From an uncultured Planctomycetia bacterium (GTDB taxonomy: Bacteria > Planctomycetota > GCA-002687715 > DRQF01), in assembly GCA_964559135.1 (NCBI GenBank), contig CAZLGG010000006.1:8247-72246 (forward strand): a DNA stretch of 64,000 nucleotides. Reading direction: 5' to 3'. Both the position numbers and the translations under genes were made by a program. The notes beneath the pieces were generated by a model. It was not told the DNA's origin. It ran no database searches and was given only the letters and a program-made list of their open reading frames with translations. Shown one piece after another: positions 1 through 32,158 of this stretch (positions are counted from its first letter, which is position 1; the number at the start of each line of letters is the position of its first letter).

Positions 1-1
1 C

Positions 2-322
2 TATCGTTTCGGAAATCGCCTGAGGTTCGACGTGGGCGCTCAATACCGGATCCACCCGGCCCGATACGAATCCTACGACCAGACCACGGTCAATCTGCTC
101 CTGGAATTCAACGGCGAATACGGATGGAACGATGAACAGGATGGGCATGATCTGAAGGCCACCGGCGGATTGCAGCTCTTCGTCTCGCCGGGCGTCCAGG
201 TGATCGTGAGTGAGGATCTGCTCTTCGAAGTGGGAGTGCAGATACCTGTCTATCGGGACCTGAACGGACCGCAACTGGGCGTCGACTTCCGAGCAACGGC
301 GGGATTGAGATGGAGATTCTGA
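2..322 (+). CDS. Outer-membrane beta-barrel 'transporter' (phenol MetA-pathway-like family), 3' part only
   Basis: Frame is open from the window edge (YRFGNRLRFDVGAQYR...). Amphipathic beta-strands, LFVSPGVQV...GVQIPVYRDLNGPQL motif and C-terminal Phe (GLRWRF). Confidence 0.65.
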   Translation, partial: YRFGNRLRFDVGAQYRIHPARYESYDQTTVNLLLEFNGEYGWNDEQDGHDLKATGGLQLFVSPGVQVIVSEDLLFEVGVQIPVYRDLNGPQLGVDFRATAGLRWRF

Positions 323-372: not shown

Positions 373-735
373 ATGAGACACGCACTTTGGACACTCTTGC
401 CCCTCGTCGCCGCGGGGCTTTTCGCCTGCGGAACCACTCATGACGGCAACACGTCGCCGACCACCTCGGAAGCCGTCCCGTCCGCGAACGCGGACATGCC
501 CGTCGTCGAAATGACCGTGGCCGGCGTCACGTGACCGATATGAGGGGGGGCCCTCAAGAGGGCCCTGGAGCGCCGGTTCGGCGCCAGCCATTACACCTTC
601 GACCTCAACTTGGGCCGCGGACACTTCACGGTTGAGCGCGACCGCCTTCCGACGTTTCAGAGTCTTCGCGAAGCGGTAGCCGACGCCGGTTTCGAGTTGA
701 AATCGGCGAAGATCCCCGGCGCGCCATCACGCTGA
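373..735 (+). CDS. HMA-domain lipoprotein with two in-frame TGA codons (candidate UxxU selenoprotein, 120 aa)
   Basis: Purine-rich GAGAAAGG upstream of ATG 373, signal peptide and lipobox-like GLFA-C. Then VEMTVAGVT-TGA(532)-PI-TGA(541)-GGALKRALERRF...LREAVADAGFELK, stop TGA 733-735. The frame after the TGAs completes an HMA fold. Confidence 0.8.
548..587 (+). promoter_or_regulatory. Two tandem hairpins just 3' of the in-frame TGAs (SECIS-like)
   Basis: GGGCCCT-CAAG-AGGGCCC (548-565) and CTG-GA-GCGCCG-GTT-CGGCGC-CAG (565-587). Confidence 0.55.
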
Positions 736-3830: not shown

Positions 3831-4982
3831 TCAAGAGGCAGCCATTTGGTCCAGGGCCTGATCCAGGTCGGCCAGGAGATCCTCCTGATTCTCGATCCCC
3901 ACCGAGAGCCTCACGAAGTCGTCCGTAATCCCCAACGCTTGGCGGGTTTCCGGGGGAACCGATGCATGAGTCATGATGGCCGGGTGTTCGAGGAGCGACT
4001 CCACGCCTCCCAGGCTCTCCGCAAGAAAAAAGAGCCGCGTCGCACGACAGAACGTCTTCGTGCTTTCGAGGTCCGCATCGAGACGGAGTGAGATCATTCC
4101 GCCGAACCCGTGCCCCTGCTCTCGCTGCATGGCGTGCCCGGGGTGGCTTTCCAGGCCCGGGTAGATGACCTCGCGCACCCGAGGATGGTCGACGAGGTGG
4201 CGCGCCACGGCCATGGCATTGCTCTGGTGGCGCTCCATGCGCAAAGCCAGCGTTTTCATGCCCCGAAGGAGCAGCCAGCTATCCATCGGACCTGGGACGG
4301 CGCCGAAGGAGTTTTGGGCGAAGGCGATCCTCTCCCCCAGATCTTCGTCGGCGACGACGAGAATGCCTCCGACCACGTCGGAATGGCCACCCAGGTACTT
4401 CGTGGCGCTATGCATGACGATGTCGGCTCCCAGCTCCAGGGGTCTTTGGAAGAAGGGGCTCATGAAGGTGTTGTCCACCCCCAACAGGGCGCCTCGATCG
4501 TGGCAAAGCCGCGCGATCCCAGAGATGTCGCAGATCTTGAGCATGGGATTCGTCGGGGACTCCACCCAGACCAGGCGAGGGCCGGCCTCGAGCTTGGCGG
4601 CGACGGCGTCCAGATCCGTCATGTCCACGTAGTCGAAGAGCAACCCCAGATTCTTGAAGATCTTGTCGAAGAGGCGAAACGTTCCCCCGTAGACATCGTC
4701 CGAGCAGAGAATCCGGTCCCCCGCCTCGAAGAGAGTCATCAGCGAACCGATCGCCCCCATGCCGGAGGAGAAGGCGAAACCGCGGCGCCCGCTCTCCAAG
4801 GACGCTATGCAGGTCTGAAGCGCGTCACGCGTGGGGTTGCTCGTCCGGGAGTATTCGTGCCCCTTGTGGACTCCCACATCGGGCTGGGCATAGGTGCTCG
4901 TCTGAAAAATCGGCACGACGACGGCCCCCGTTTGGGTCTCGGGCTCCTGTCCGACGTGGATGGCGCGGGTTTCGAACTCCAT
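3831..4982 (-). CDS. Cystathionine gamma-lyase/gamma-synthase (PLP, Cys/Met metabolism)
   Basis: FETRAIHVGQ, EYSRTSNPT, WVESPTNP, MHSATKYLGGHSD, LAESLGGVESL, RLSVGIE; GGAGG RBS before ATG 4982. Confidence 0.93.
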   Translation of the reverse strand: MEFETRAIHVGQEPETQTGAVVVPIFQTSTYAQPDVGVHKGHEYSRTSNPTRDALQTCIASLESGRRGFAFSSGMGAIGSLMTLFEAGDRILCSDDVYGGTFRLFDKIFKNLGLLFDYVDMTDLDAVAAKLEAGPRLVWVESPTNPMLKICDISGIARLCHDRGALLGVDNTFMSPFFQRPLELGADIVMHSATKYLGGHSDVVGGILVVADEDLGERIAFAQNSFGAVPGPMDSWLLLRGMKTLALRMERHQSNAMAVARHLVDHPRVREVIYPGLESHPGHAMQREQGHGFGGMISLRLDADLESTKTFCRATRLFFLAESLGGVESLLEHPAIMTHASVPPETRQALGITDDFVRLSVGIENQEDLLADLDQALDQMAAS

Positions 4983-5135: not shown

Positions 5136-6236
5136 ATGACGTCGGACGGATTTCAATATGACGCGGCGGGCGTCGACACGCGCAAGGCCCGTTCCGGATT
5201 GGAAGCTCTCTCTCGATCGATTCGGGACACCCTCTCGTTCCGGGACGATCACACCTTCGGTCGCCCGGCGACGGGATTCGGCTACTACGCCAACGTCCTG
5301 CAGATGCCTCAGGGCGGCGGGCTCGCCATCGCCACGGACGGGGTGGGCACGAAGATCCTCATCGCCGAGAAGACCGGACGCTACGACACGATTCCGATCG
5401 ACATGATCGCGATGAATGTGAACGATCTCATCTGCGTAGGAGCCGATCCCTTCGCGCTCGTGGACTACATTGCCGTGGGGCGCGTGGACGAGGAGGTCTT
5501 CGAAGCGCTCGGACGAGGGCTCCGCGAGGGTGCCCGCCAGTCGGGCATCACGATTCCCGGAGGCGAGATCGCCCAAGTGAAAGAACTCCTCCGAGGCGAA
5601 GGCCCGACGGAAGGGTTCGATCTCGTGGGAACCGCCGTGGGATGGGTGCCCATCGACGAGGTCAATCTGGGCATGGACGTCCAGCCCGGCGATCACGTGA
5701 TCGGTCTACGGTCGAGCGGGCTCCACTCGAACGGCTATACCCTGGCTCGCCGGGTGCTTTTGGAAGATGGCGGCCTGTCCCTGGATACGGAGTTGCCCGA
5801 CCTCGGCCGCTCCCTCGGCGAGGAACTCCTCGAACCCACGAGGATCTACGTCCCCCACGTCCGGGCTCTCGAGCGCGCCGGCCTCCGACCTCATGCACTC
5901 CTCCACATCACGGGGGATGGCTACTGCAACCTCAATCGTGTTCAGGCGGACGTCGGCTTCGTCCTCGATGGACTCCCTTCTCCCCCGCCGATCTTCCAAC
6001 GCATCCAAGACATGGGAGCCGTACCTCCCGAGGAGATGCACTCGGTGTTCAACATGGGCATCGGGTTTTGCCTCGTGGTGGGCGACAAAGACCGGGATCG
6101 AACGCTCGAGGTCCTCCGGTCTTTGGGAGAAGAACCACTCGTGCTGGGGCGAGCCTCCGCGGAGCACCCCAACGAGGTTCTCATGCCTCAGGTGGGCCTC
6201 ATCGGCCGCAAGGATCGCTTCCACCGCGAGGGATGA
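5136..6236 (+). CDS. purM: Phosphoribosylformylglycinamidine cyclo-ligase (AIR synthetase)
   Basis: YDAAGVD, TDGVGTKI, GGEIA, SSGLHSNGY, LHITGDG, FNMGIGF; AGGAGG RBS. Confidence 0.95.
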   Translation: MTSDGFQYDAAGVDTRKARSGLEALSRSIRDTLSFRDDHTFGRPATGFGYYANVLQMPQGGGLAIATDGVGTKILIAEKTGRYDTIPIDMIAMNVNDLICVGADPFALVDYIAVGRVDEEVFEALGRGLREGARQSGITIPGGEIAQVKELLRGEGPTEGFDLVGTAVGWVPIDEVNLGMDVQPGDHVIGLRSSGLHSNGYTLARRVLLEDGGLSLDTELPDLGRSLGEELLEPTRIYVPHVRALERAGLRPHALLHITGDGYCNLNRVQADVGFVLDGLPSPPPIFQRIQDMGAVPPEEMHSVFNMGIGFCLVVGDKDRDRTLEVLRSLGEEPLVLGRASAEHPNEVLMPQVGLIGRKDRFHREG

Positions 6237-25080: not shown

Positions 25081-26226
25081 ATGCCCAGGCGAGTCTATCT
25101 GGATCACGCGGCGTCGAGTCCGCTTCTTCCCGAAGTCGCGGAAGCGATGGGTCGGGTGCAATCGACGGCCATGGGCAATCCAAGCAGCCTCCACTCGGAG
25201 GGGCGGCGTGCCCGCCGGGCCCTGGAGGACGCTCGCGAGACTCTCGCCGCGGCCTTGAACCGCCCGTCGAGGGAGGTGATCTTCACCGGGTCGGCGACCG
25301 AGGCCAACAATGCGGCGATCCTCGGAATCGCACCCGTTCTCGAATCCGCGGGTCGACAGACGATTCTGCTCTCACCGATCGAGCACCCCTCGATCCTGGA
25401 GCCTGCACGGAGGCTGGAGCGCCGCGGTTTCACGCTCAGGTGGATGCCCGTCATGCCGAACGGGGTCGTCGATCTGGAGGCCGCGGAAGCTCTGTTGGAT
25501 GATTCCGTGGGGTTTTCGTCGCTCATGTGGGTGAACAACGAGATCGGGACCGTCCAGCCCGTCCAAGCCTGGGCCGAGGTTTGCACGAACGCAGGCGTGG
25601 TTTTTCATTGCGACGCCGTCCAGGCCCTCGGAAAACAGGTTTGGGAACCACCCGTCGGCGCCTTGTTGACGGTTTCGGCTCACAAGATCGGCGGACCTCG
25701 AGGAGTCGGGGCGTTGATCATGCCGGCCGGCGTGCGGGCGGAGCCTCTTGTGGTGGGGGGGGCGCAAGAGCGGGATCGTCGCGCCGGCACGGAGAACGTG
25801 GTGGGAGCCGCCGGTTTTGCGGCGGCGGCGGCGGCGGTCCGCCGGGAGGAGGCGTCACGTCTTGCCCATCTGGCGGGTTTGGATCGTCTTCTTACGGCGC
25901 GACTCTCCGAGAAGGTCCCCTGCGTCAAATTCAACGTGCCGGAGGGGGCGCCGAGGGCACCCGGCATATGGAACCTCCATTGGCCGGGCCACTACGGCGA
26001 GGCGTTGCTCATTCGATTGGATTTGGAAGGCATCGCGGTCAGCTTGGGCAGCGCGTGCTCCTCGGGGGCGGTGGAGCCTTCACATGTCCTGGAGGCGCTG
26101 CAAAGGGATCGTGAGACCCTGTTCTCTTCGTTTCGGATCTCGGCGGGACGGACCACGACGAGGGAAGACATCGAGCAGTTCGTCACCGTCCTGGCTCGGG
26201 TCGCGCAAGAGGATGACGCAACGTGA
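25081..26226 (+). CDS. iscS: Cysteine desulfurase (IscS/NifS family)
   Basis: YLDHAASSP, GNPSSLH, FTGSATEANN, NNEIGTVQP, HCDAVQA, SAHKIGGP, SLGSACSS. Confidence 0.92.
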   Translation: MPRRVYLDHAASSPLLPEVAEAMGRVQSTAMGNPSSLHSEGRRARRALEDARETLAAALNRPSREVIFTGSATEANNAAILGIAPVLESAGRQTILLSPIEHPSILEPARRLERRGFTLRWMPVMPNGVVDLEAAEALLDDSVGFSSLMWVNNEIGTVQPVQAWAEVCTNAGVVFHCDAVQALGKQVWEPPVGALLTVSAHKIGGPRGVGALIMPAGVRAEPLVVGGAQERDRRAGTENVVGAAGFAAAAAAVRREEASRLAHLAGLDRLLTARLSEKVPCVKFNVPEGAPRAPGIWNLHWPGHYGEALLIRLDLEGIAVSLGSACSSGAVEPSHVLEALQRDRETLFSSFRISAGRTTTREDIEQFVTVLARVAQEDDAT

Positions 26227-26543
26227 ATGTGCGGCTGCGGCGGTGCCGATGCCCCGTCGTTCTCGCCATCAATTGTTGTGCCGAAAAAAAACTTGTTCCC
26301 CATAGAAGTTCTCAAGGTGCGGACCCGTCGAGAGATCGACGCCCAAAAAAAGATGACGCCGCGCGACACGGATCAGATGGGGGGGACACCGGTTGACGCT
26401 GGTGATGCCCGCCTCTATAGTCCGTCCCTGTCCCGCGGTGGTCATGGAACATGTTTCACCGGGCCGGGTGGTGCTTATTCCGACAACATGAGGTGGCCTG
26501 CAAACTAGCAGACGACGGTCGTCGTCTGCCCAATGGGTGGCGT

Positions 26544-27911
26544 ATGTCGAGCAAGAAGAACGAGCGTTTTTGGGACAAGGTTCTGGAAGCCGTCAAGGAA
26601 GTCGTCAGTGGCGAGCAGTTCGAGACCTGGTTCACCAAGACATCCTGCGCGGCGATCCGTGACGACGAGATCGTCGTGGAAGTGCCCAGCAAGTTTTACT
26701 CGGAGTGGTTGCGCCGTCAGTACCTCGAAGTCCTCGAGGAGGCTGTCCAGCGGGTCAGGGGAGTGAACGGCGCTTCGATCAGCTTTCAGATCGCGGCGGT
26801 CGCCCACGCGGGGGCGGGTGACTCCTTGCCACGCGCGGCGCCCTTGCCTCGCAGGAGTCCGAGCCGGGATCGGGGAGGCCATGATCGTGATCGCCTTCCC
26901 CTCAATCCCCAATACACCCTCGAAAACTTTGTCGTCGGGGCATCGAATCGACTGGCCCACGCTGCGTCCTTGGCGGTGATCGAGGATACGGGTCGCGTCT
27001 ACAATCCCCTCTTCCTGTATGGGGGGGTGGGCCTGGGTAAGACCCATCTTCTTCAGGGAATCTGCCACGCGGTGCGCAAGCAGCAGCCGGACGTCCGGAT
27101 TCGTTACATCCCTTGCGAACAGTTCGTCAACCAATTCATCGCGGCCTTGGGCAAGAATCGGCTGGAAGAGTTCCGCGAGCAGCACCGCCGCTTGGACATC
27201 CTCGTCATCGACGACATCCACTTCCTGGCCAGCAAGGACCACACGCAGGAAGAATTCTTCCATACGTTCAACGCGCTCTACAACAACCAGAAGCAGATCA
27301 TCCTTTCGTCGGACAGCGCACCGAAGGACATTCCAACCTTGGAAGATCGTCTGGTTTCCCGGTTCAAGTGGGGGCTGGTGTGCGAGATTGAACCGCCCAC
27401 CTTCGAGACCAGGATGGCGATCGTCCTGAAGAAGGCGCGCCTCTACGGCGTCGAGGTTCCCGATGACGTGGTGGAGTTCATCGCTTCCGCCATTCTCGTG
27501 AATGTCCGGGAACTCGAAGGCGCCGTGACGCGATTTTTGGGTTTTGCACGGATCATGAAGCGTCCCCTGTCCCTCGAGACGGCCAAGGAAGCCCTGGGAG
27601 ATCTGGTGAGTTCCGCGCAACGGCGGGTGACCATCGTCCGCATCGTCGACCTGGTCACCGAGCACTTCGATGTGCGACTGAGCGAGTTGCAATCGAAGAA
27701 GCGGAATCATTCCATCGCACTGCCGCGGCAGGTCTGCATGTTCCTGGCTCGCAAGTACACGAAGCTGTCCCTGGCGGAGATCGGCGGGTTCTTCGGTGGT
27801 CGCGATCATTCCACGGTCATCTACGCGGTGGACAAGATCGACCAGCTCAAGAAGAACGACATCGAACTGCGCGCTTCCCTGCAAACTTTGGAGCGGCGCT
27901 TGGAGTCGTGA
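26544..27911 (+). CDS. dnaA: Chromosomal replication initiator
   Basis: YTLENFVVG, YNPLFLYGGVGLGKTHLL, DDIHFL, QEEFFHTFN, NVRELEGA, GGRDHSTVIYA. Confidence 0.98.
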   Translation: MSSKKNERFWDKVLEAVKEVVSGEQFETWFTKTSCAAIRDDEIVVEVPSKFYSEWLRRQYLEVLEEAVQRVRGVNGASISFQIAAVAHAGAGDSLPRAAPLPRRSPSRDRGGHDRDRLPLNPQYTLENFVVGASNRLAHAASLAVIEDTGRVYNPLFLYGGVGLGKTHLLQGICHAVRKQQPDVRIRYIPCEQFVNQFIAALGKNRLEEFREQHRRLDILVIDDIHFLASKDHTQEEFFHTFNALYNNQKQIILSSDSAPKDIPTLEDRLVSRFKWGLVCEIEPPTFETRMAIVLKKARLYGVEVPDDVVEFIASAILVNVRELEGAVTRFLGFARIMKRPLSLETAKEALGDLVSSAQRRVTIVRIVDLVTEHFDVRLSELQSKKRNHSIALPRQVCMFLARKYTKLSLAEIGGFFGGRDHSTVIYAVDKIDQLKKNDIELRASLQTLERRLES

Positions 27912-27949
27912 GAGGCGGGGCGCACCCCGGCCCACCCCGCGCGATTCGT

Positions 27950-28127
27950 TGTGGATAACCCGTGGCGGCTGAGCCTCTTGCGCACGGTGGGCGCTTCCGT
28001 GGGTGGGCCGAATGCGCACCCGAAGTCTTTACGTCATGGGGGTTTGTCGCACCCGTAGGTGGGTTGGTCCGTGCGGAAAACTCGTGGAATCGGGCCAGGG
28101 ATGGGAGTGTGGAAAAGCTGTGGAGGG
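27950..28127. promoter_or_regulatory. DnaA-box cluster in the dnaA-dnaN spacer
   Basis: Perfect TGTGGATAA (27950-27958), TGCGGAAAA (28072), TGTGGAAAA (28108), TGTGGAGGG (28119). Confidence 0.7.
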
Positions 28128-28305
28128 GATCCCGCGCCCCGTCACCCGAAAGCCGCGCCCCGAGAGTCTCAGGGGGCAAATCCGAACCTCTTGAGCGACC
28201 ATGACTTAGAGTTCACCCCAAAGGGTCGTGCCGGGCTGTTCCTCGCCCCCCTCCGAGCCTATAATCCCGGGGTCCCTCCGACCCTTGAATCATGGGGAAT
28301 CAAGC

Positions 28306-29415
28306 ATGAAATGCAGCGTCGCCCGGAAGAGCCTCCTGGATGGTCTGTCAGCCGTGGGAATGGTGGCCTCGTCTCAACCCATGGGGTATCAACACGTCCT
28401 TCTCCAGGCTGGGGCTGACGGATTTCTGCAACTGGAATGCACGGACGGGGCCATGTCCATTCGCTATCGGGTACCCGCGGAATCCGTGGACGAACCCGGC
28501 GTGGCCGTGGTCCCGGTGCAGAAACTCACCTCTGTCACCAAGGAGTGTCACACGGACAGCCTCCAGATCCAGGCGGATGAAGTGGGCAAGACGAAGGTTC
28601 GGTCCGGCCGCAGTCTCTTCCAGCTTCTCGGTGAACGGGCGGAGGATTTCCCGACACTCACCGACTTTCCCTCCGAGTGCGCCTTTGGAATGGACCGAGC
28701 ACGGCTCCTGCATCTGATGGCGAAAACTCAGTTTTCGGTGGCGCGCGAGCGGTCACGCTTCGCATTCAACGGGGCCAGGCTCGAGATTTCCGGCAGTGAC
28801 GCCCGCATGGTGGCCACGGATGGAAAACGGCTGGCGACGAAAGTGATCCTCATCGACAACAGCGACGGTGTCGAAGCGTCTCCGATCATCCCCGTTCACG
28901 CGCTGCAAGTGTTCGAACGGGTTCTCGCCGAAGAAGACGACCGGATCCAGTTGGCCTTGGACGACACCCACGTGAACCTTCAGACTTCGCGTGCCTTCGT
29001 CTCCGCGCCCTTGCTTCTGGGGCGTTTCCCGGACTATCGCAAGGTCATTCCTCAGGACTGCCCGATCCGAATCGAATTCGATCGACTGGACCTGATTCAA
29101 GCTTTTCGCCAAGCAGCCCTGTTCATCACTGAGGAAACCCGTTCGGTCCGTTTTCAACTGGAAAACGGTCAGTTGAGCATTCAGGCCCAGGCCTTGGATG
29201 CGGGAGAGGCGACGGTCGAATTGGATGCTCCGGATTACACGGACGAAAAGCCCTTCACGATTTCACTGAACCCCCAATTCATGGCGGATGGTCTGAAGGT
29301 CATGGATTCGGATCGCGCCGTGATCGAGTTGACCTCTCCGAGCAACCCGGTGAAGGTGACGGGGGAGCCTGACTTCGTCTACGTCGTCATGCCTGTGACC
29401 ATGCGGAATGGCTGA
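28306..29415 (+). CDS. dnaN: DNA polymerase III beta sliding clamp
   Basis: AEDFPTL, MVATDGKRLA, GRFPDYRKVIP, LNPQFMAD, YVVMP; follows dnaA; TATAAT at 28260. Confidence 0.95.
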   Translation: MKCSVARKSLLDGLSAVGMVASSQPMGYQHVLLQAGADGFLQLECTDGAMSIRYRVPAESVDEPGVAVVPVQKLTSVTKECHTDSLQIQADEVGKTKVRSGRSLFQLLGERAEDFPTLTDFPSECAFGMDRARLLHLMAKTQFSVARERSRFAFNGARLEISGSDARMVATDGKRLATKVILIDNSDGVEASPIIPVHALQVFERVLAEEDDRIQLALDDTHVNLQTSRAFVSAPLLLGRFPDYRKVIPQDCPIRIEFDRLDLIQAFRQAALFITEETRSVRFQLENGQLSIQAQALDAGEATVELDAPDYTDEKPFTISLNPQFMADGLKVMDSDRAVIELTSPSNPVKVTGEPDFVYVVMPVTMRNG

Positions 29416-29737
29416 GCATCCCAAGCGGTCCCCCTGGGGAGCCGATTCCATCGGGGACATCCTCGACACATGGTTGGCCAAGGTGGAACGGGAAACGATG
29501 GGTCCCACCCAGCGTGTCGTGGCGGCATGGCAGGGCGTCATTCGAGAGAACGAGCGATTGAGAAGGACCCGGGTCGCCGCTTTTCGCTCCGGTGTGGCGG
29601 TGATCGAAGTGGCATCCCCGCCCCTGTGCGCGGAGTTGGCCCAATTCCAGCGATCGCAACTGTTGGAACGACTGAACGAATTCATGGAAGGAGACAGGGT
29701 CGTCCGCGATCTGCGGTTCAGACTCGGCGCCTTCTGA
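29408..29737 (+). CDS. DUF721 / DciA-family protein
   Basis: IGDIL...AAW...VIEVASP..CAEL...LLERLN...LRFRLG; between dnaN and gyrB. Confidence 0.8.
   Translation: MAEHPKRSPWGADSIGDILDTWLAKVERETMGPTQRVVAAWQGVIRENERLRRTRVAAFRSGVAVIEVASPPLCAELAQFQRSQLLERLNEFMEGDRVVRDLRFRLGAF

Positions 29738-32158
<2,421 letters not shown>

What the first reader, a model, noticed from the sequence alone, without database searches (positions are those of the whole stretch)
546..587. Two tandem SECIS-like hairpins, possibly one per UGA
Seen in sequence: hairpin 1 is GGGCCCT-CAAG-AGGGCCC (548-565), with its loop 20 nt after the first TGA and 11 nt after the second. Hairpin 2 is CTG-(GA bulge)-GCGCCG-GTT-CGGCGC-CAG (565-587), with a loop starting with G, 32 nt after the second TGA. 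Established knowledge: bacterial SECIS elements lie in the coding sequence just 3' of the UGA, with a G early in the apical loop roughly 16-37 nt away. Inference: hairpin 1 may serve UGA1 and hairpin 2 may serve UGA2, which would let a bacterium decode two UGAs 9 nt apart. Caveats: the hairpin 1 loop does not start with G, both stems share C565, and GC-rich DNA forms hairpins easily.
Basis: partly seen in the sequence, partly recalled or inferred. Interest (0 to 1): 0.7.

Follow-up and report, generated by a model that had tools for sequence, protein, structure and literature searches.

The report
Double-selenocysteine gene with two conserved hairpins
Two in-frame stop codons in a small metal-binding lipoprotein gene are followed by two hairpins kept in ten related bacteria: the second is a textbook selenocysteine-insertion signal, the first is a conserved extra hairpin of unproven role, which makes this a natural test case for how bacteria read two such codons only 9 bases apart.

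Summary
Window 373-735 (+) encodes a 120-codon lipoprotein with a heavy-metal-associated (HMA) domain. Its CxxC metal site reads TGA-CCG-ATA-TGA (532-534, 541-543). Ten independent Planctomycetota orthologs, found through the conserved upstream outer-membrane barrel gene, all keep both TGAs and both hairpins. The sequence 3' of the TGAs is under purifying selection (dN/dS 0.16).

Hairpin 2 (570-584) meets every rule of the bacterial SECIS model:
- 94% of cells are paired, and three pairs show compensatory changes.
- The loop is G then G/U in 11/11 sequences, although the codon supplying loop bases 2-3 encodes F, A, V or S.
- The loop lies 32 nt after UGA2.
- Single-UGA genes in related loci carry the same hairpin type 20-23 nt after their UGA.

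Hairpin 1 (547-566) is present in 11/11 and is more stable than synonymous recodings in 8/11. However, its covariation is weak, and only 4/11 loops have the required G; the window's loop does not.

"One SECIS per UGA" is therefore only partly supported. My best reading is that hairpin 2 is the SECIS and hairpin 1 is an accessory helix that, when folded, shortens the UGA1-to-hairpin-2 distance from 41 to about 21 nt. Selenocysteine machinery could not be checked. UxxU metal-binding selenoproteins are already known; the conserved tandem-hairpin layout is not described in the papers searched.

The parts
1..322 (+). 3' end of the upstream outer-membrane beta-barrel gene (Pfam Phenol_MetA_deg family). 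In the source contig it is preceded by a MerR-family regulator gene.
   Evidence: L001 gene table; window position 1 = L001 position 9692. One search found 61 homologs, mostly Planctomycetota; the regulator's best match is TIGR02051 Hg-MerR at 131 bits, below its cut-off of 150.85.
373..735 (+). Selenoprotein gene of 120 codons: signal peptide with lipobox, linker, and an HMA domain whose CxxC site is U-P-I-U.
   Evidence: the family profile matches the MerP, CopA, ATP7B and NmerA HMA domains across the CxxC motif; 10 orthologs all have TGA-NNN-NNN-TGA; dN/dS is 0.16 for codons 72-120.
373..429 (+). Signal peptide ending in the lipobox L-F-A-C (Cys19 codon at 427-429).
   Evidence: Read directly from the translation. 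A Cys at this position is nearly invariant in the ortholog alignment. No signal-peptide predictor was run.
532..534 (+). UGA1, the first Sec codon, followed by C.
   Evidence: TGA in 11/11 sequences, next base C in 10/11.
538..540 (+). AUA (Ile) codon immediately 5' of UGA2, a very rare codon in this genome.
   Evidence: ATA is 0.9 per 1000 codons in 14 window genes; it is used here in 6/11 orthologs, and L012 uses TTA.
541..543 (+). UGA2, the second Sec codon, followed by G.
   Evidence: TGA in 11/11 sequences, next base G in 11/11.
547..566 (+). Hairpin 1: stem 547-554 with 559-566 and loop CAAG (555-558). It is a conserved accessory helix and does not fit the SECIS loop rule.
   Evidence: present in 11/11 at -9.3 to -15.7 kcal/mol; more stable than synonymous recodings at p<0.05 in 8/11; two pairing registers are 84-85% paired and covariation is weak.
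570..584 (+). Hairpin 2: stem 570-575 with 579-584 and loop GUU (576-578). This is the probable SelB-binding SECIS.
   Evidence: 94.3% of cells are paired against 20-44% for slid controls, 3 pairs have compensatory changes, and 0/500 shuffles reach the observed score. Loop is G[G/U]N in 11/11. Synonymous recoding gives p<0.05 in 8/11.
520..588 (+). Nucleotide block that is invariant in two related strains that differ at 10-13% of positions over the laid stretch.
   Evidence: the contigs of runs X3 and X4 show 0 differences here; the chance of that is about 4e-5 and 6e-4; identity to L003 peaks at 93-97% over 523-582.

Best explanation
Window 373-735 encodes a periplasm-facing lipoprotein with one HMA metal-binding domain, in which both metal-ligand cysteines are replaced by selenocysteine (U-P-I-U). 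The gene lies in a MerR-regulated cluster with an outer-membrane barrel, so it probably handles a soft metal such as mercury.

The stretch 546-587 is its recoding signal. Hairpin 2 (570-584; 6-8 bp stem, G-U-U triloop) is the SECIS that binds the elongation factor SelB carrying Sec-tRNA. Hairpin 1 (547-566) is a conserved accessory helix rather than a second SECIS.

Proposed mechanism (inferred, not shown):
- With UGA1 in the ribosomal A site, hairpin 1 begins 12 nt downstream, just outside the mRNA entry channel, and stays folded.
- Its 20 nt are then taken out of the path, so the hairpin 2 loop is effectively about 21 nt from UGA1 instead of 41 nt. That equals the 20-23 nt seen for single-UGA genes in related genomes.
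- Three codons later the ribosome has melted hairpin 1, and the same hairpin 2, reloaded with SelB, serves UGA2 from 32 nt.
- The rare AUA codon before UGA2 may give time for reloading.

Shown: the gene, both conserved UGAs, selection on the downstream frame, conservation of both hairpins, and the covariation and loop rule of hairpin 2. Inferred: SelB binding, the role of hairpin 1, the role of the AUA codon, and the metal.
For: Gene and recoding:
- The in-frame UGAs fall on the CxxC positions of the HMA domain.
- All 11 sequences from 10 independent loci keep both UGAs.
- dN/dS is 0.16 with dS about 1.0 for codons 72-120.
- TGA is the ordinary stop codon in 10 of 14 window genes, so the genetic code is standard.

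Hairpin 2 as the SECIS:
- It meets the four rules of the bSECIS model quoted in PMC13188914.
- 94.3% of cells are paired, and pairs 38-54, 39-53 and 44-48 change on both sides (AU 5 versus GC 5 at 39-53). No shuffle of 500 reaches the observed score.
- The loop is GUU, GGC, GGU or GUC in 11/11, while the codon giving loop bases 2-3 encodes F, A, V or S.
- Related loci hold single-UGA genes with the same kind of hairpin: L011:5387 (glutaredoxin-like, 7 bp with a GUA loop, 23 nt after UGA) and L009:1834 (7 bp with a GUC loop, 20 nt).
- PMC13582414 reports G at loop position 1 or 2 in 100% of Sec-type sequences against about 26% of Cys-type sequences.

Hairpin 1 as an accessory helix:
- It is present in 11/11 and is more stable than synonymous recodings in 8/11.
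- G is at loop position 1 or 2 in only 4/11, and covariation is weak.
- A second UxxU family in L011 and L013 has one G-loop hairpin 29-32 nt from UGA1 and 20-23 nt from UGA2. One SECIS serving two UGAs at about 21 and about 31 nt is therefore the simplest common scheme. Family 1 reaches the same two distances only if hairpin 1 is folded at UGA1.
Against: - Nothing here shows SelB binding or Sec insertion.
- No selA, selB or selD motif and no tRNA gene is present in the 64 kb window or the fetched loci. The rest of the genome could not be scanned.
- The stem base of hairpin 1 (12 nt after UGA1) and its loop (20 nt after UGA1) coincide with the place of the E. coli fdhF SECIS (11 nt; the 18-nt loop distance is my own count from the recalled fdhF sequence). 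This equally fits hairpin 1 being a SECIS itself.
- The review notes that some bacterial SECIS elements do not obey the G rule.
- The second UxxU family has only two DNA sequences.
- The hairpin 1 arms encode a repeated (G/R)-A-L motif in GC-rich codons, so part of its stability is a coding by-product: recoded versions still average -6 to -10 kcal/mol.
- In E. coli the UGA-SECIS spacing is reported to be strict (my own knowledge of the Heider 1992 and Liu 1998 work). If that held here, a 32 nt distance for UGA2 would be a problem for any model.
Confidence: 0.45

Rival explanations
1. One reading: two SECIS elements in tandem, each pre-loaded with its own SelB-Sec-tRNA complex. Hairpin 1 serves UGA1. 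The ribosome then melts it, and hairpin 2 serves UGA2.
For: - Both hairpins are conserved in 11/11 TGA-bearing sequences.
- The hairpin 1 stem starts 12 nt after UGA1 and its loop lies 20 nt after it. This matches E. coli fdhF geometry and the 20-23 nt seen in single-UGA genes of related loci.
- Hairpin 1 is more stable than synonymous recodings in 8/11.
- Two pre-loaded factors would explain how two UGAs only three codons apart are read without a wait for reloading.
- The four most divergent orthologs (L011-L014) do have G at loop position 1 or 2 of hairpin 1.
Against: - Hairpin 1 loops lack G at positions 1-2 in 7/11, including the window, and none has the G[G/U] dinucleotide opening the loop that hairpin 2 shows in 11/11.
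- Covariation is weak and two pairing registers fit about equally.
- The other recoding hairpins found in related loci have a G[G/U] loop start (three triloops; L013's is the 5-nt loop CGUGC), unlike hairpin 1.
- The second UxxU family shows no second SECIS-like hairpin at a usable distance.
- The two spacings differ by 12 nt (20 against 32).
Confidence: 0.25
2. Hairpin 2 alone directs both UGAs, from 41 and 32 nt. Hairpin 1 has no part in positioning the SECIS. It is a by-product of the repeated Ala-Leu codons in GC-rich sequence, or it acts more generally, for example by pausing the ribosome or stabilising the mRNA.
For: - PMC13582414 proposes a single downstream SECIS for UXXU hydrogenases.
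- Hairpin 1 covariation is weak.
- Synonymous recodings of the same peptide still fold to -6 to -10 kcal/mol on average.
- The gene has other strong hairpins, at 410-431, 480-495 and 684-708.
- The Cys-type HMA coding sequences in L009 and L013 also fold stably overall.
Against: - 41 nt lies outside the 16-37 nt range of the bSECIS model and far from the 20-23 nt of the single-UGA genes in related loci.
- Hairpin 1 is kept in all 11 sequences through a register shift and amino-acid changes (A, S, V, T, G, R in the 5' arm).
- It beats synonymous recodings at p<0.05 in 8/11.
- The two Cys-type HMA paralogs do not show the pair of hairpins at these positions (n = 2, a weak control).
Confidence: 0.2
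3. No selenocysteine is inserted. Either the UGAs are read as cysteine by a SelB-dependent tRNA of the selC* (tRNA-ReC) type, or the gene is a decaying pseudogene or terminates at UGA1.
For: - The Sec machinery was not found in the window or loci.
- PMC13582414 reports tRNA-ReC-like genes in about 56% of genomes with UXXU hydrogenases and notes that one or both UGAs may then be read as Cys.
Against: - A pseudogene or plain termination is excluded by dN/dS 0.16 downstream of the UGAs and by both UGAs being kept in 10 diverged orthologs.
- Cys insertion through tRNA-ReC would still need the SECIS and SelB, so it changes the amino acid and not the role of the hairpins.
- Related loci carry genes of known selenoprotein families, such as glutaredoxin UxxC.
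- Full Sec machinery is reported in several Planctomycetes (PMC4807772).
Confidence: 0.07

Closest known systems
Bacterial SECIS element (bSECIS consensus model of Zhang and Gladyshev 2005, as summarised in PMC13188914; prototype E. coli fdhF)
   Same: Hairpin 2 lies inside the coding sequence just 3' of the UGA. It has a 6-8 bp upper stem and a 3-nt apical loop that starts with G followed by G or U. Its loop is 32 nt after UGA2 and its energy is below -7.5 kcal/mol.
   Different: Two UGAs 9 nt apart share the region. A second conserved hairpin lies between UGA2 and the SECIS. The SECIS is 41 nt from UGA1, outside the model's range. There is no bulged U as in fdhF. No Rfam family matches.
NCBIfam NF041115 'UxxU_metal_bind' metal-binding (seleno)protein, the 'putative mercuric reductase, UxxU' family first reported from the Olavius symbiont (per the review tables in PMC13188914 and PMC9312934, which cite PMC1976440)
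   Same: A small HMA-domain protein in which both cysteines of the metal site are selenocysteine.
   Different: The window protein scores 18.5 bits against a cut-off of 95, so it is not a member. It is a lipoprotein encoded next to an outer-membrane barrel in Planctomycetota, and many orthologs carry a C-terminal extension of about 90 residues. The second HMA domain of the L011 fusion is closer to the family (69.6 bits).
UXXU-type Group 4 [NiFeSe] hydrogenases (PMC13582414, 2026)
   Same: Two putative Sec codons lie two codons apart in a metal-ligand CxxC motif, followed by a SECIS-like hairpin with G in the first or second loop position. How both UGAs are decoded is an open question there too.
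   Different: That paper predicts one SECIS per gene and describes no conserved intervening hairpin. The protein family and the phyla are different.
MerP / CopZ periplasmic or cytosolic HMA metallochaperones
   Same: The family profile aligns across the GMTCxxC loop of the HMA ferredoxin-like fold. The gene has MerR-family neighbours, and MerT-HMA-thioredoxin fusion genes lie in related loci.
   Different: Sec replaces Cys at both ligands. The protein has a lipoprotein anchor. Scores are far below the MerP and CopZ equivalog cut-offs.
Eukaryotic selenoprotein P with two 3'-UTR SECIS elements
   Same: More than one UGA is served, and more than one RNA element is present.
   Different: It is a different domain of life, with a different SECIS type, binding factors and element position. 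The resemblance is analogy only.

Membership tests
Bacterial SECIS (bSECIS consensus model) | Apical loop of 3-9 nt on an upper stem of 4-16 bp | tested here: met
   Hairpin 1 has an 8 bp stem and a 4-nt loop. Hairpin 2 has a 6 bp stem (8 bp in most orthologs) and a 3-nt loop.
Bacterial SECIS (bSECIS consensus model) | G in one of the first two loop positions, usually followed by G or U - hairpin 2 | tested here: met
   The loops are GUU, GGC, GGU or GUC in 11/11 sequences.
Bacterial SECIS (bSECIS consensus model) | G in one of the first two loop positions - hairpin 1 | tested here: not met
   The window loop is CAAG. Only 4/11 orthologs have G at position 1 or 2 (GAAGA, CGAAA, GAAGA, GCAA), and none has G[G/U] at the loop start.
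Bacterial SECIS (bSECIS consensus model) | [quoted passage not shown] | tested here: inconclusive
   UGA1-H1 is 20 nt and UGA2-H2 is 32 nt, both inside the range. UGA1-H2 is 41 nt and UGA2-H1 is 11 nt, both outside it. The result depends on which hairpin serves which UGA.
Bacterial SECIS (bSECIS consensus model) | Free energy of -7.5 kcal/mol or lower | tested here: met
   H1 is -13.3 to -15.7 kcal/mol. H2 is -9.5 to -10.5 kcal/mol in the window and as low as -15.6 in orthologs.
Bacterial SECIS (bSECIS consensus model) | Structure kept by compensatory change in Sec-type homologs | tested here: met
   This is met for hairpin 2 (three pairs with double changes, 0/500 shuffles reach the score). 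For hairpin 1 it is weak or inconclusive.
Bacterial SECIS (bSECIS consensus model) | Binds SelB and directs Sec insertion; selA, selB, selC and selD present in the genome | not testable with these tools
   The 64 kb window and the fetched loci contain no sel-gene motif and no tRNA gene.
Rfam RNA families (all 4227 families in release 15, which would include any curated SECIS family) | Covariance-model match | tested here: not met
   There was no match at gathering score in the window and none up to E = 10 in 300-800 apart from a spurious IRES hit.
HMA domain (Pfam PF00403) | Profile match across the fold with the two ligand positions of GMTCxxC | tested here: met
   The single sequence is weak (E = 1.3e-3, 19.5 bits, below the 24.8 cut-off). 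The 11-sequence profile matches the HMA domains of ATP7B, CopA, MerP and NmerA (E from 1.8e-9 to 2.3e-5), with the U positions aligned to CxxC.
NF041115 UxxU_metal_bind (equivalog) | Score at or above the curated cut-off of 95 bits | tested here: not met
   The window protein scores 18.5 bits and the L007 ortholog 25 bits.
MerP (TIGR02052) | Score at or above the curated cut-off of 92.55 bits | tested here: not met
   15.6 bits.

The most novel reading that the evidence does not exclude
Hairpin 1 is a second SECIS with a non-canonical loop, so this gene family carries a tandem pair of SelB-loading sites, one per UGA. That would be the first tandem SECIS arrangement described in bacteria, and a mechanism for processive insertion of two selenocysteines three codons apart.
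Probability: 0.25. Interest if true: 0.8.

Novelty: new variant of a known kind. Interest (0 to 1): 0.6.

Why it matters
Bacterial selenocysteine insertion is taught as one UGA read with one SECIS at a fixed short distance. Genes with two UGAs two codons apart (UxxU) are now known in several families, and a 2026 paper (PMC13582414) leaves open how both are decoded.

This family offers a natural test system. It has eleven sequences with fixed geometry, a clearly canonical SECIS, and a second conserved hairpin exactly between the second UGA and that SECIS. Related genomes also hold a paralogous UxxU family that lacks such a hairpin at a usable position.

Simple reporter constructs could distinguish three cases:
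- one reusable SECIS;
- one SECIS plus a collapsible spacer;
- two SECIS elements.

The answer bears on the design of multi-Sec recombinant proteins in bacteria. On the protein side, a diselenolate HMA site in a MerR-linked, barrel-associated lipoprotein from vent and mat metagenomes suggests a very high-affinity trap for mercury or another soft metal.

Tried and rejected
- Direct protein searches for homologs of the gene failed. They returned only the window's own N-terminal fragment, repetitive false hits, or a few fragments, because gene callers cut these genes at the UGAs.
- The genome and metagenome scans gave one ortholog only. The metagenome scan used a pattern containing the Cys placeholder, which cannot match TGA.
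- Guessing called-gene sequences to annotate the rest of the window failed.
- What worked was searching with the upstream barrel protein and fetching its neighbours.
- An AIRS-domain gene 5 kb downstream was considered as selD and rejected: its sequence reads to me as PurM (DGVGTK motif, my own recognition).
- An apparent in-frame TGA at 29735 is only the stop codon of a small gene in the same frame as gyrB.
- A SECIS-first scan of the window found no other credible selenoprotein gene.
- A lower helix enclosing both hairpins, as in the window's minimum-energy fold, is not reproduced in the orthologs.
- A reassigned genetic code is rejected because TGA ends 10 of 14 window genes.
Full report
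**1. What is in the sequence**

Window 373-735 (+) is one reading frame of 120 codons, interrupted only by TGA at 532-534 and TGA at 541-543. The product begins with a signal peptide ending in the lipobox L-F-A-C. After a linker comes ...VEMTVAGVT-U-P-I-U-GGALKRALERRFGA..., where U marks the two TGA codons.

With Cys in place of the TGAs, the protein matches the heavy-metal-associated (HMA) domain weakly (Pfam E = 1.3e-3). It also gives weak NCBIfam hits to CopZ, MerP and the curated family NF041115 'UxxU_metal_bind, metal-binding (seleno)protein'. A profile of 11 family members matches solved HMA domains (ATP7B, CopA, MerP 1afi, NmerA 2kt2; E from 1.8e-9 to 2.3e-5). In those alignments the two TGA positions fall exactly on the GMTCxxC metal ligands.

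Hairpin 1 (H1) is 547/548-565/566 with loop CAAG. Hairpin 2 (H2) has its core at 570-584 with loop GUU.

**2. Context**

The window is part of a 117 kb metagenome contig. Immediately upstream lie a MerR-family regulator and an outer-membrane barrel of the Phenol_MetA_deg family. The regulator's best match is the mercury-type MerR, TIGR02051, at 131 bits, below its cut-off of 150.85. The 3' end of the barrel gene is window 1-322.

The window also carries dnaA, dnaN and gyrB, so it is chromosomal and near the replication origin. TGA is the usual stop codon, ending 10 of 14 genes. No tRNA gene and no selA, selB or selD motif lies in the window.

**3. Relatives**

Searches with the protein itself were nearly blind, because gene callers cut these genes at the first TGA. 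One ortholog came from a Planctomycetota MAG from a hydrothermal-vent study (L003, 71% identity, both TGAs kept).

Searching with the upstream barrel protein gave 61 homologs. Fetching nine of them showed the same pattern in every case. A small lipoprotein gene follows the barrel gene, called only as a 43-61 residue stump, and it reads G-G-[VI]-[TA]-TGA-NNN-NNN-TGA-[AG]-G when translated through.

All 11 sequences (10 independent loci plus the window) are UxxU, and no Cys form was among them. One more distant Cys-type lipoprotein (P0070, GMSCPMC) exists as protein only.

**4. The frame is translated through both UGAs**

Against L003, codons 72-120 have dS of about 1.0 and dN/dS of 0.16. The most conserved peptide of the family starts directly after UGA2. 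This excludes a pseudogene and plain termination.

**5. The hairpins across the family**

There are no indels, so the 72 nt from UGA1 align column for column (A2). Each of the 11 sequences folds into both hairpins at the same columns: H1 at -9.3 to -15.7 kcal/mol and H2 at -9.1 to -15.6 kcal/mol.

*Hairpin 2*
- 94.3% of cells are paired, against 20-44% when the 3' partners are slid.
- Three pairs change on both sides (38-54; 39-53 with AU 5 versus GC 5; 44-48 with AU 7 versus GC 3).
- No shuffle of 500 reaches the observed pairing or covariation score.
- The loop is GUU, GGC, GGU or GUC, that is G then G/U in 11/11. The codon supplying loop bases 2-3 encodes Phe, Ala, Val or Ser.
- The RNA rule is therefore kept while the amino acid is not.

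*Hairpin 1*
- It is always there, but two pairing registers one base apart fit about equally (84-85% paired).
- Only one pair per register shows a double change, so its covariation is weak.
- Its loops are CAAG, UCAAGC, AAG, CAGG, CAAGC, GAAGA, CGAAA and GCAA.

*Other tests*
- Against synonymous recodings drawn from each locus's own codon usage, H1 is unusually stable at p<0.05 in 8/11, and H2 likewise in 8/11. The remaining values are 0.06-0.19.
- In the window's own genes, two separate strong hairpins within 56 nt occur at 0.16-0.34% of codon positions.
- Contigs from two further metagenomes are 10-13% diverged over the gene but show no difference in 520-588. The chance of that is about 4e-5 and 6e-4.

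**6. Comparison with the SECIS rules**

The consensus bacterial model has four rules (PMC13188914):
- a loop of 3-9 nt on a stem of 4-16 bp;
- G in one of the first two loop positions, mostly followed by G or U;
- 16-37 nt between the UGA and the loop;
- an energy of -7.5 kcal/mol or lower.

H2 meets all four for UGA2 (32 nt) but lies 41 nt from UGA1. H1 meets the size, energy and spacing rules for UGA1 (20 nt). It fails the G rule in the window and in 7/11 sequences overall.

In the 2026 hydrogenase study the loop G was present in 100% of Sec-type and about 26% of Cys-type sequences (PMC13582414). The 36% for H1 looks like background.

**7. Internal calibration from related loci**

The fetched loci hold other recoding candidates:
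- L011:5351-5584 is a glutaredoxin-like gene with G-U-MFC, a known selenoprotein type. It has a 7 bp hairpin with a GUA triloop 23 nt after its UGA.
- L009:1759-1983 is a small membrane protein with A-U-PLC. It has a 7 bp hairpin with a GUC triloop 20 nt after its UGA.
- A second UxxU family consists of an HMA domain fused to thioredoxin. In L011 it continues the same reading frame, which gives four in-frame UGAs in one gene. In L013 it is a separate lipoprotein gene.
- That family has one strong G-loop hairpin, with its loop 29-32 nt from UGA1 and 20-23 nt from UGA2. It also has a small hairpin overlapping UGA2 that cannot be folded during decoding. Its HMA domain scores 69.6 bits on NF041115.

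The local SECIS type therefore looks like H2, not H1. About 20-23 nt is the usual distance. In the second family, one hairpin apparently serves UGAs at about 21 and about 31 nt.

**8. Mechanism**

Shown: a conserved UxxU gene, a canonical and covarying SECIS (H2), and a conserved extra hairpin (H1).

Inferred as best explanation (confidence 0.45): H2 is the only SelB site. With UGA1 in the A site, H1 starts 12 nt downstream and is still folded. Its 20 nt drop out of the path, and the H2 loop is effectively about 21 nt away. After three more codons H1 is melted, and H2 serves UGA2 from 32 nt. These are the same two distances as in the second family.

The codon before UGA2 is AUA in 6/11 orthologs, although AUA is 0.9 per 1000 codons here. 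UGA1 is followed by C in 10/11 and UGA2 by G in 11/11. These may tune pausing and termination, but that is speculative.

Rivals:
It is favoured by the E. coli-like position of H1 (fdhF minimal hairpin 11 nt after UGA; PMC8659212) and by the kinetic appeal of two pre-loaded factors.
- H2 alone serves both UGAs and H1 is incidental or generally acting (0.2).
- No Sec is inserted: Cys through tRNA-ReC, or no function (0.07).

**9. Known or new**

UxxU metal-binding selenoproteins are known, for example NF041115, first seen in the Olavius symbiont. This family scores far below that model's cut-off and is a new, lipoprotein, barrel-linked subfamily in Planctomycetota. Sec use is documented in some Planctomycetes (PMC4807772).

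Literature searches found no description of a conserved second hairpin or of tandem SECIS elements in bacteria. They found only the single-SECIS suggestion for UXXU hydrogenases. Two SECIS elements are known only for eukaryotic selenoprotein P.

I rate the finding a new variant of a known kind, with interest 0.6.

**10. Limits**
- Sec machinery could not be checked in any source genome.
- No DNA of a Cys-type homolog could be fetched.
- The sequences are related, so the per-sequence p-values are not independent.
- The second UxxU family has two DNA sequences only.
- Nothing here measures decoding.

Noticed in passing
L011:4032-5237: One reading frame joins the UxxU HMA domain (TGA at 4182 and 4191), a middle domain, a second UxxU HMA domain (TGA at 4674 and 4683) and a thioredoxin domain. 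That makes four in-frame UGAs in a single bacterial gene. Proteins P0068 and P0069 end at the same 'GMLKSKSGAT' stump, so the arrangement recurs.
   Followed up: partly
L013:5921-6613: A separate lipoprotein gene with an HMA domain (GIT-U-LG-U, TGA at 6071 and 6080) fused to thioredoxin (CHLC). It has one G-containing hairpin whose loop is 29 nt from UGA1 and 20 nt from UGA2.
   Followed up: partly
L011:5351-5584: A glutaredoxin-like gene with an in-frame TGA at 5387 (YSQPG-U-MFC). It is followed by the hairpin CGCAAGA/GUA/UCUUGCG, whose loop is 23 nt after the UGA. It is called only as a 64-residue fragment.
   Followed up: partly
L009:1759-1983: A small two-helix membrane protein (…SPAWA-U-PLCGG…) lies between merR and a MerT-HMA-thioredoxin fusion gene. 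Its in-frame TGA is at 1834, and the hairpin GCCCCUC/GUC/GGGGGGC follows 20 nt later. It is a candidate selenoprotein that no gene caller has called.
   Followed up: partly
window 538-540: The codon between the two UGAs is ATA, which is 0.9 per 1000 codons in 14 window genes. It is ATA in 6 of 11 orthologs, and TTA (0.45 per 1000) in L012. This may be a programmed slow step before UGA2.
   Followed up: partly
window 26451-32158: dnaA (26451-27911), dnaN (28228-29415), a small gene I read as DUF721/DciA-like by eye (no family scan; ends 29737) and gyrB (29750-32158). The window lies at the chromosomal replication origin region.
   Followed up: partly
L001:2318-7463 (upstream of the window on the same contig); also L005:1-2850: A DEAD/Helicase_C gene and two adjacent BrxC/BrxD-like ATPase genes sit next to the merR-barrel-selenoprotein cluster. 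They look like a phage-defence module.
   Followed up: no
L001:8461-8493: Upstream of merR is a promoter-like site, TTGACC-(about 20 nt containing the imperfect dyad CTGTAGC..GCTACGG)-TAGAAT. The long spacer is typical of MerR-family operators. This was seen by eye only. The regulator has a Cys-x8-Cys-Pro C-terminal motif like mercury-type MerR.
   Followed up: no
window 684-708: Another strong hairpin lies inside the same gene (CGCCGGTTTCGAGTTGAAATCGGCG, 11 bp, -14.4 kcal/mol). The gene holds 5 strong hairpins in 363 nt, against about 3 per kb in other window genes.
   Followed up: no
window 25081-26226: A class-V aminotransferase (NifS/SufS-like) gene lies next to dnaA. Enzymes of this class can act as selenocysteine lyases. 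No link to the finding was tested.
   Followed up: no
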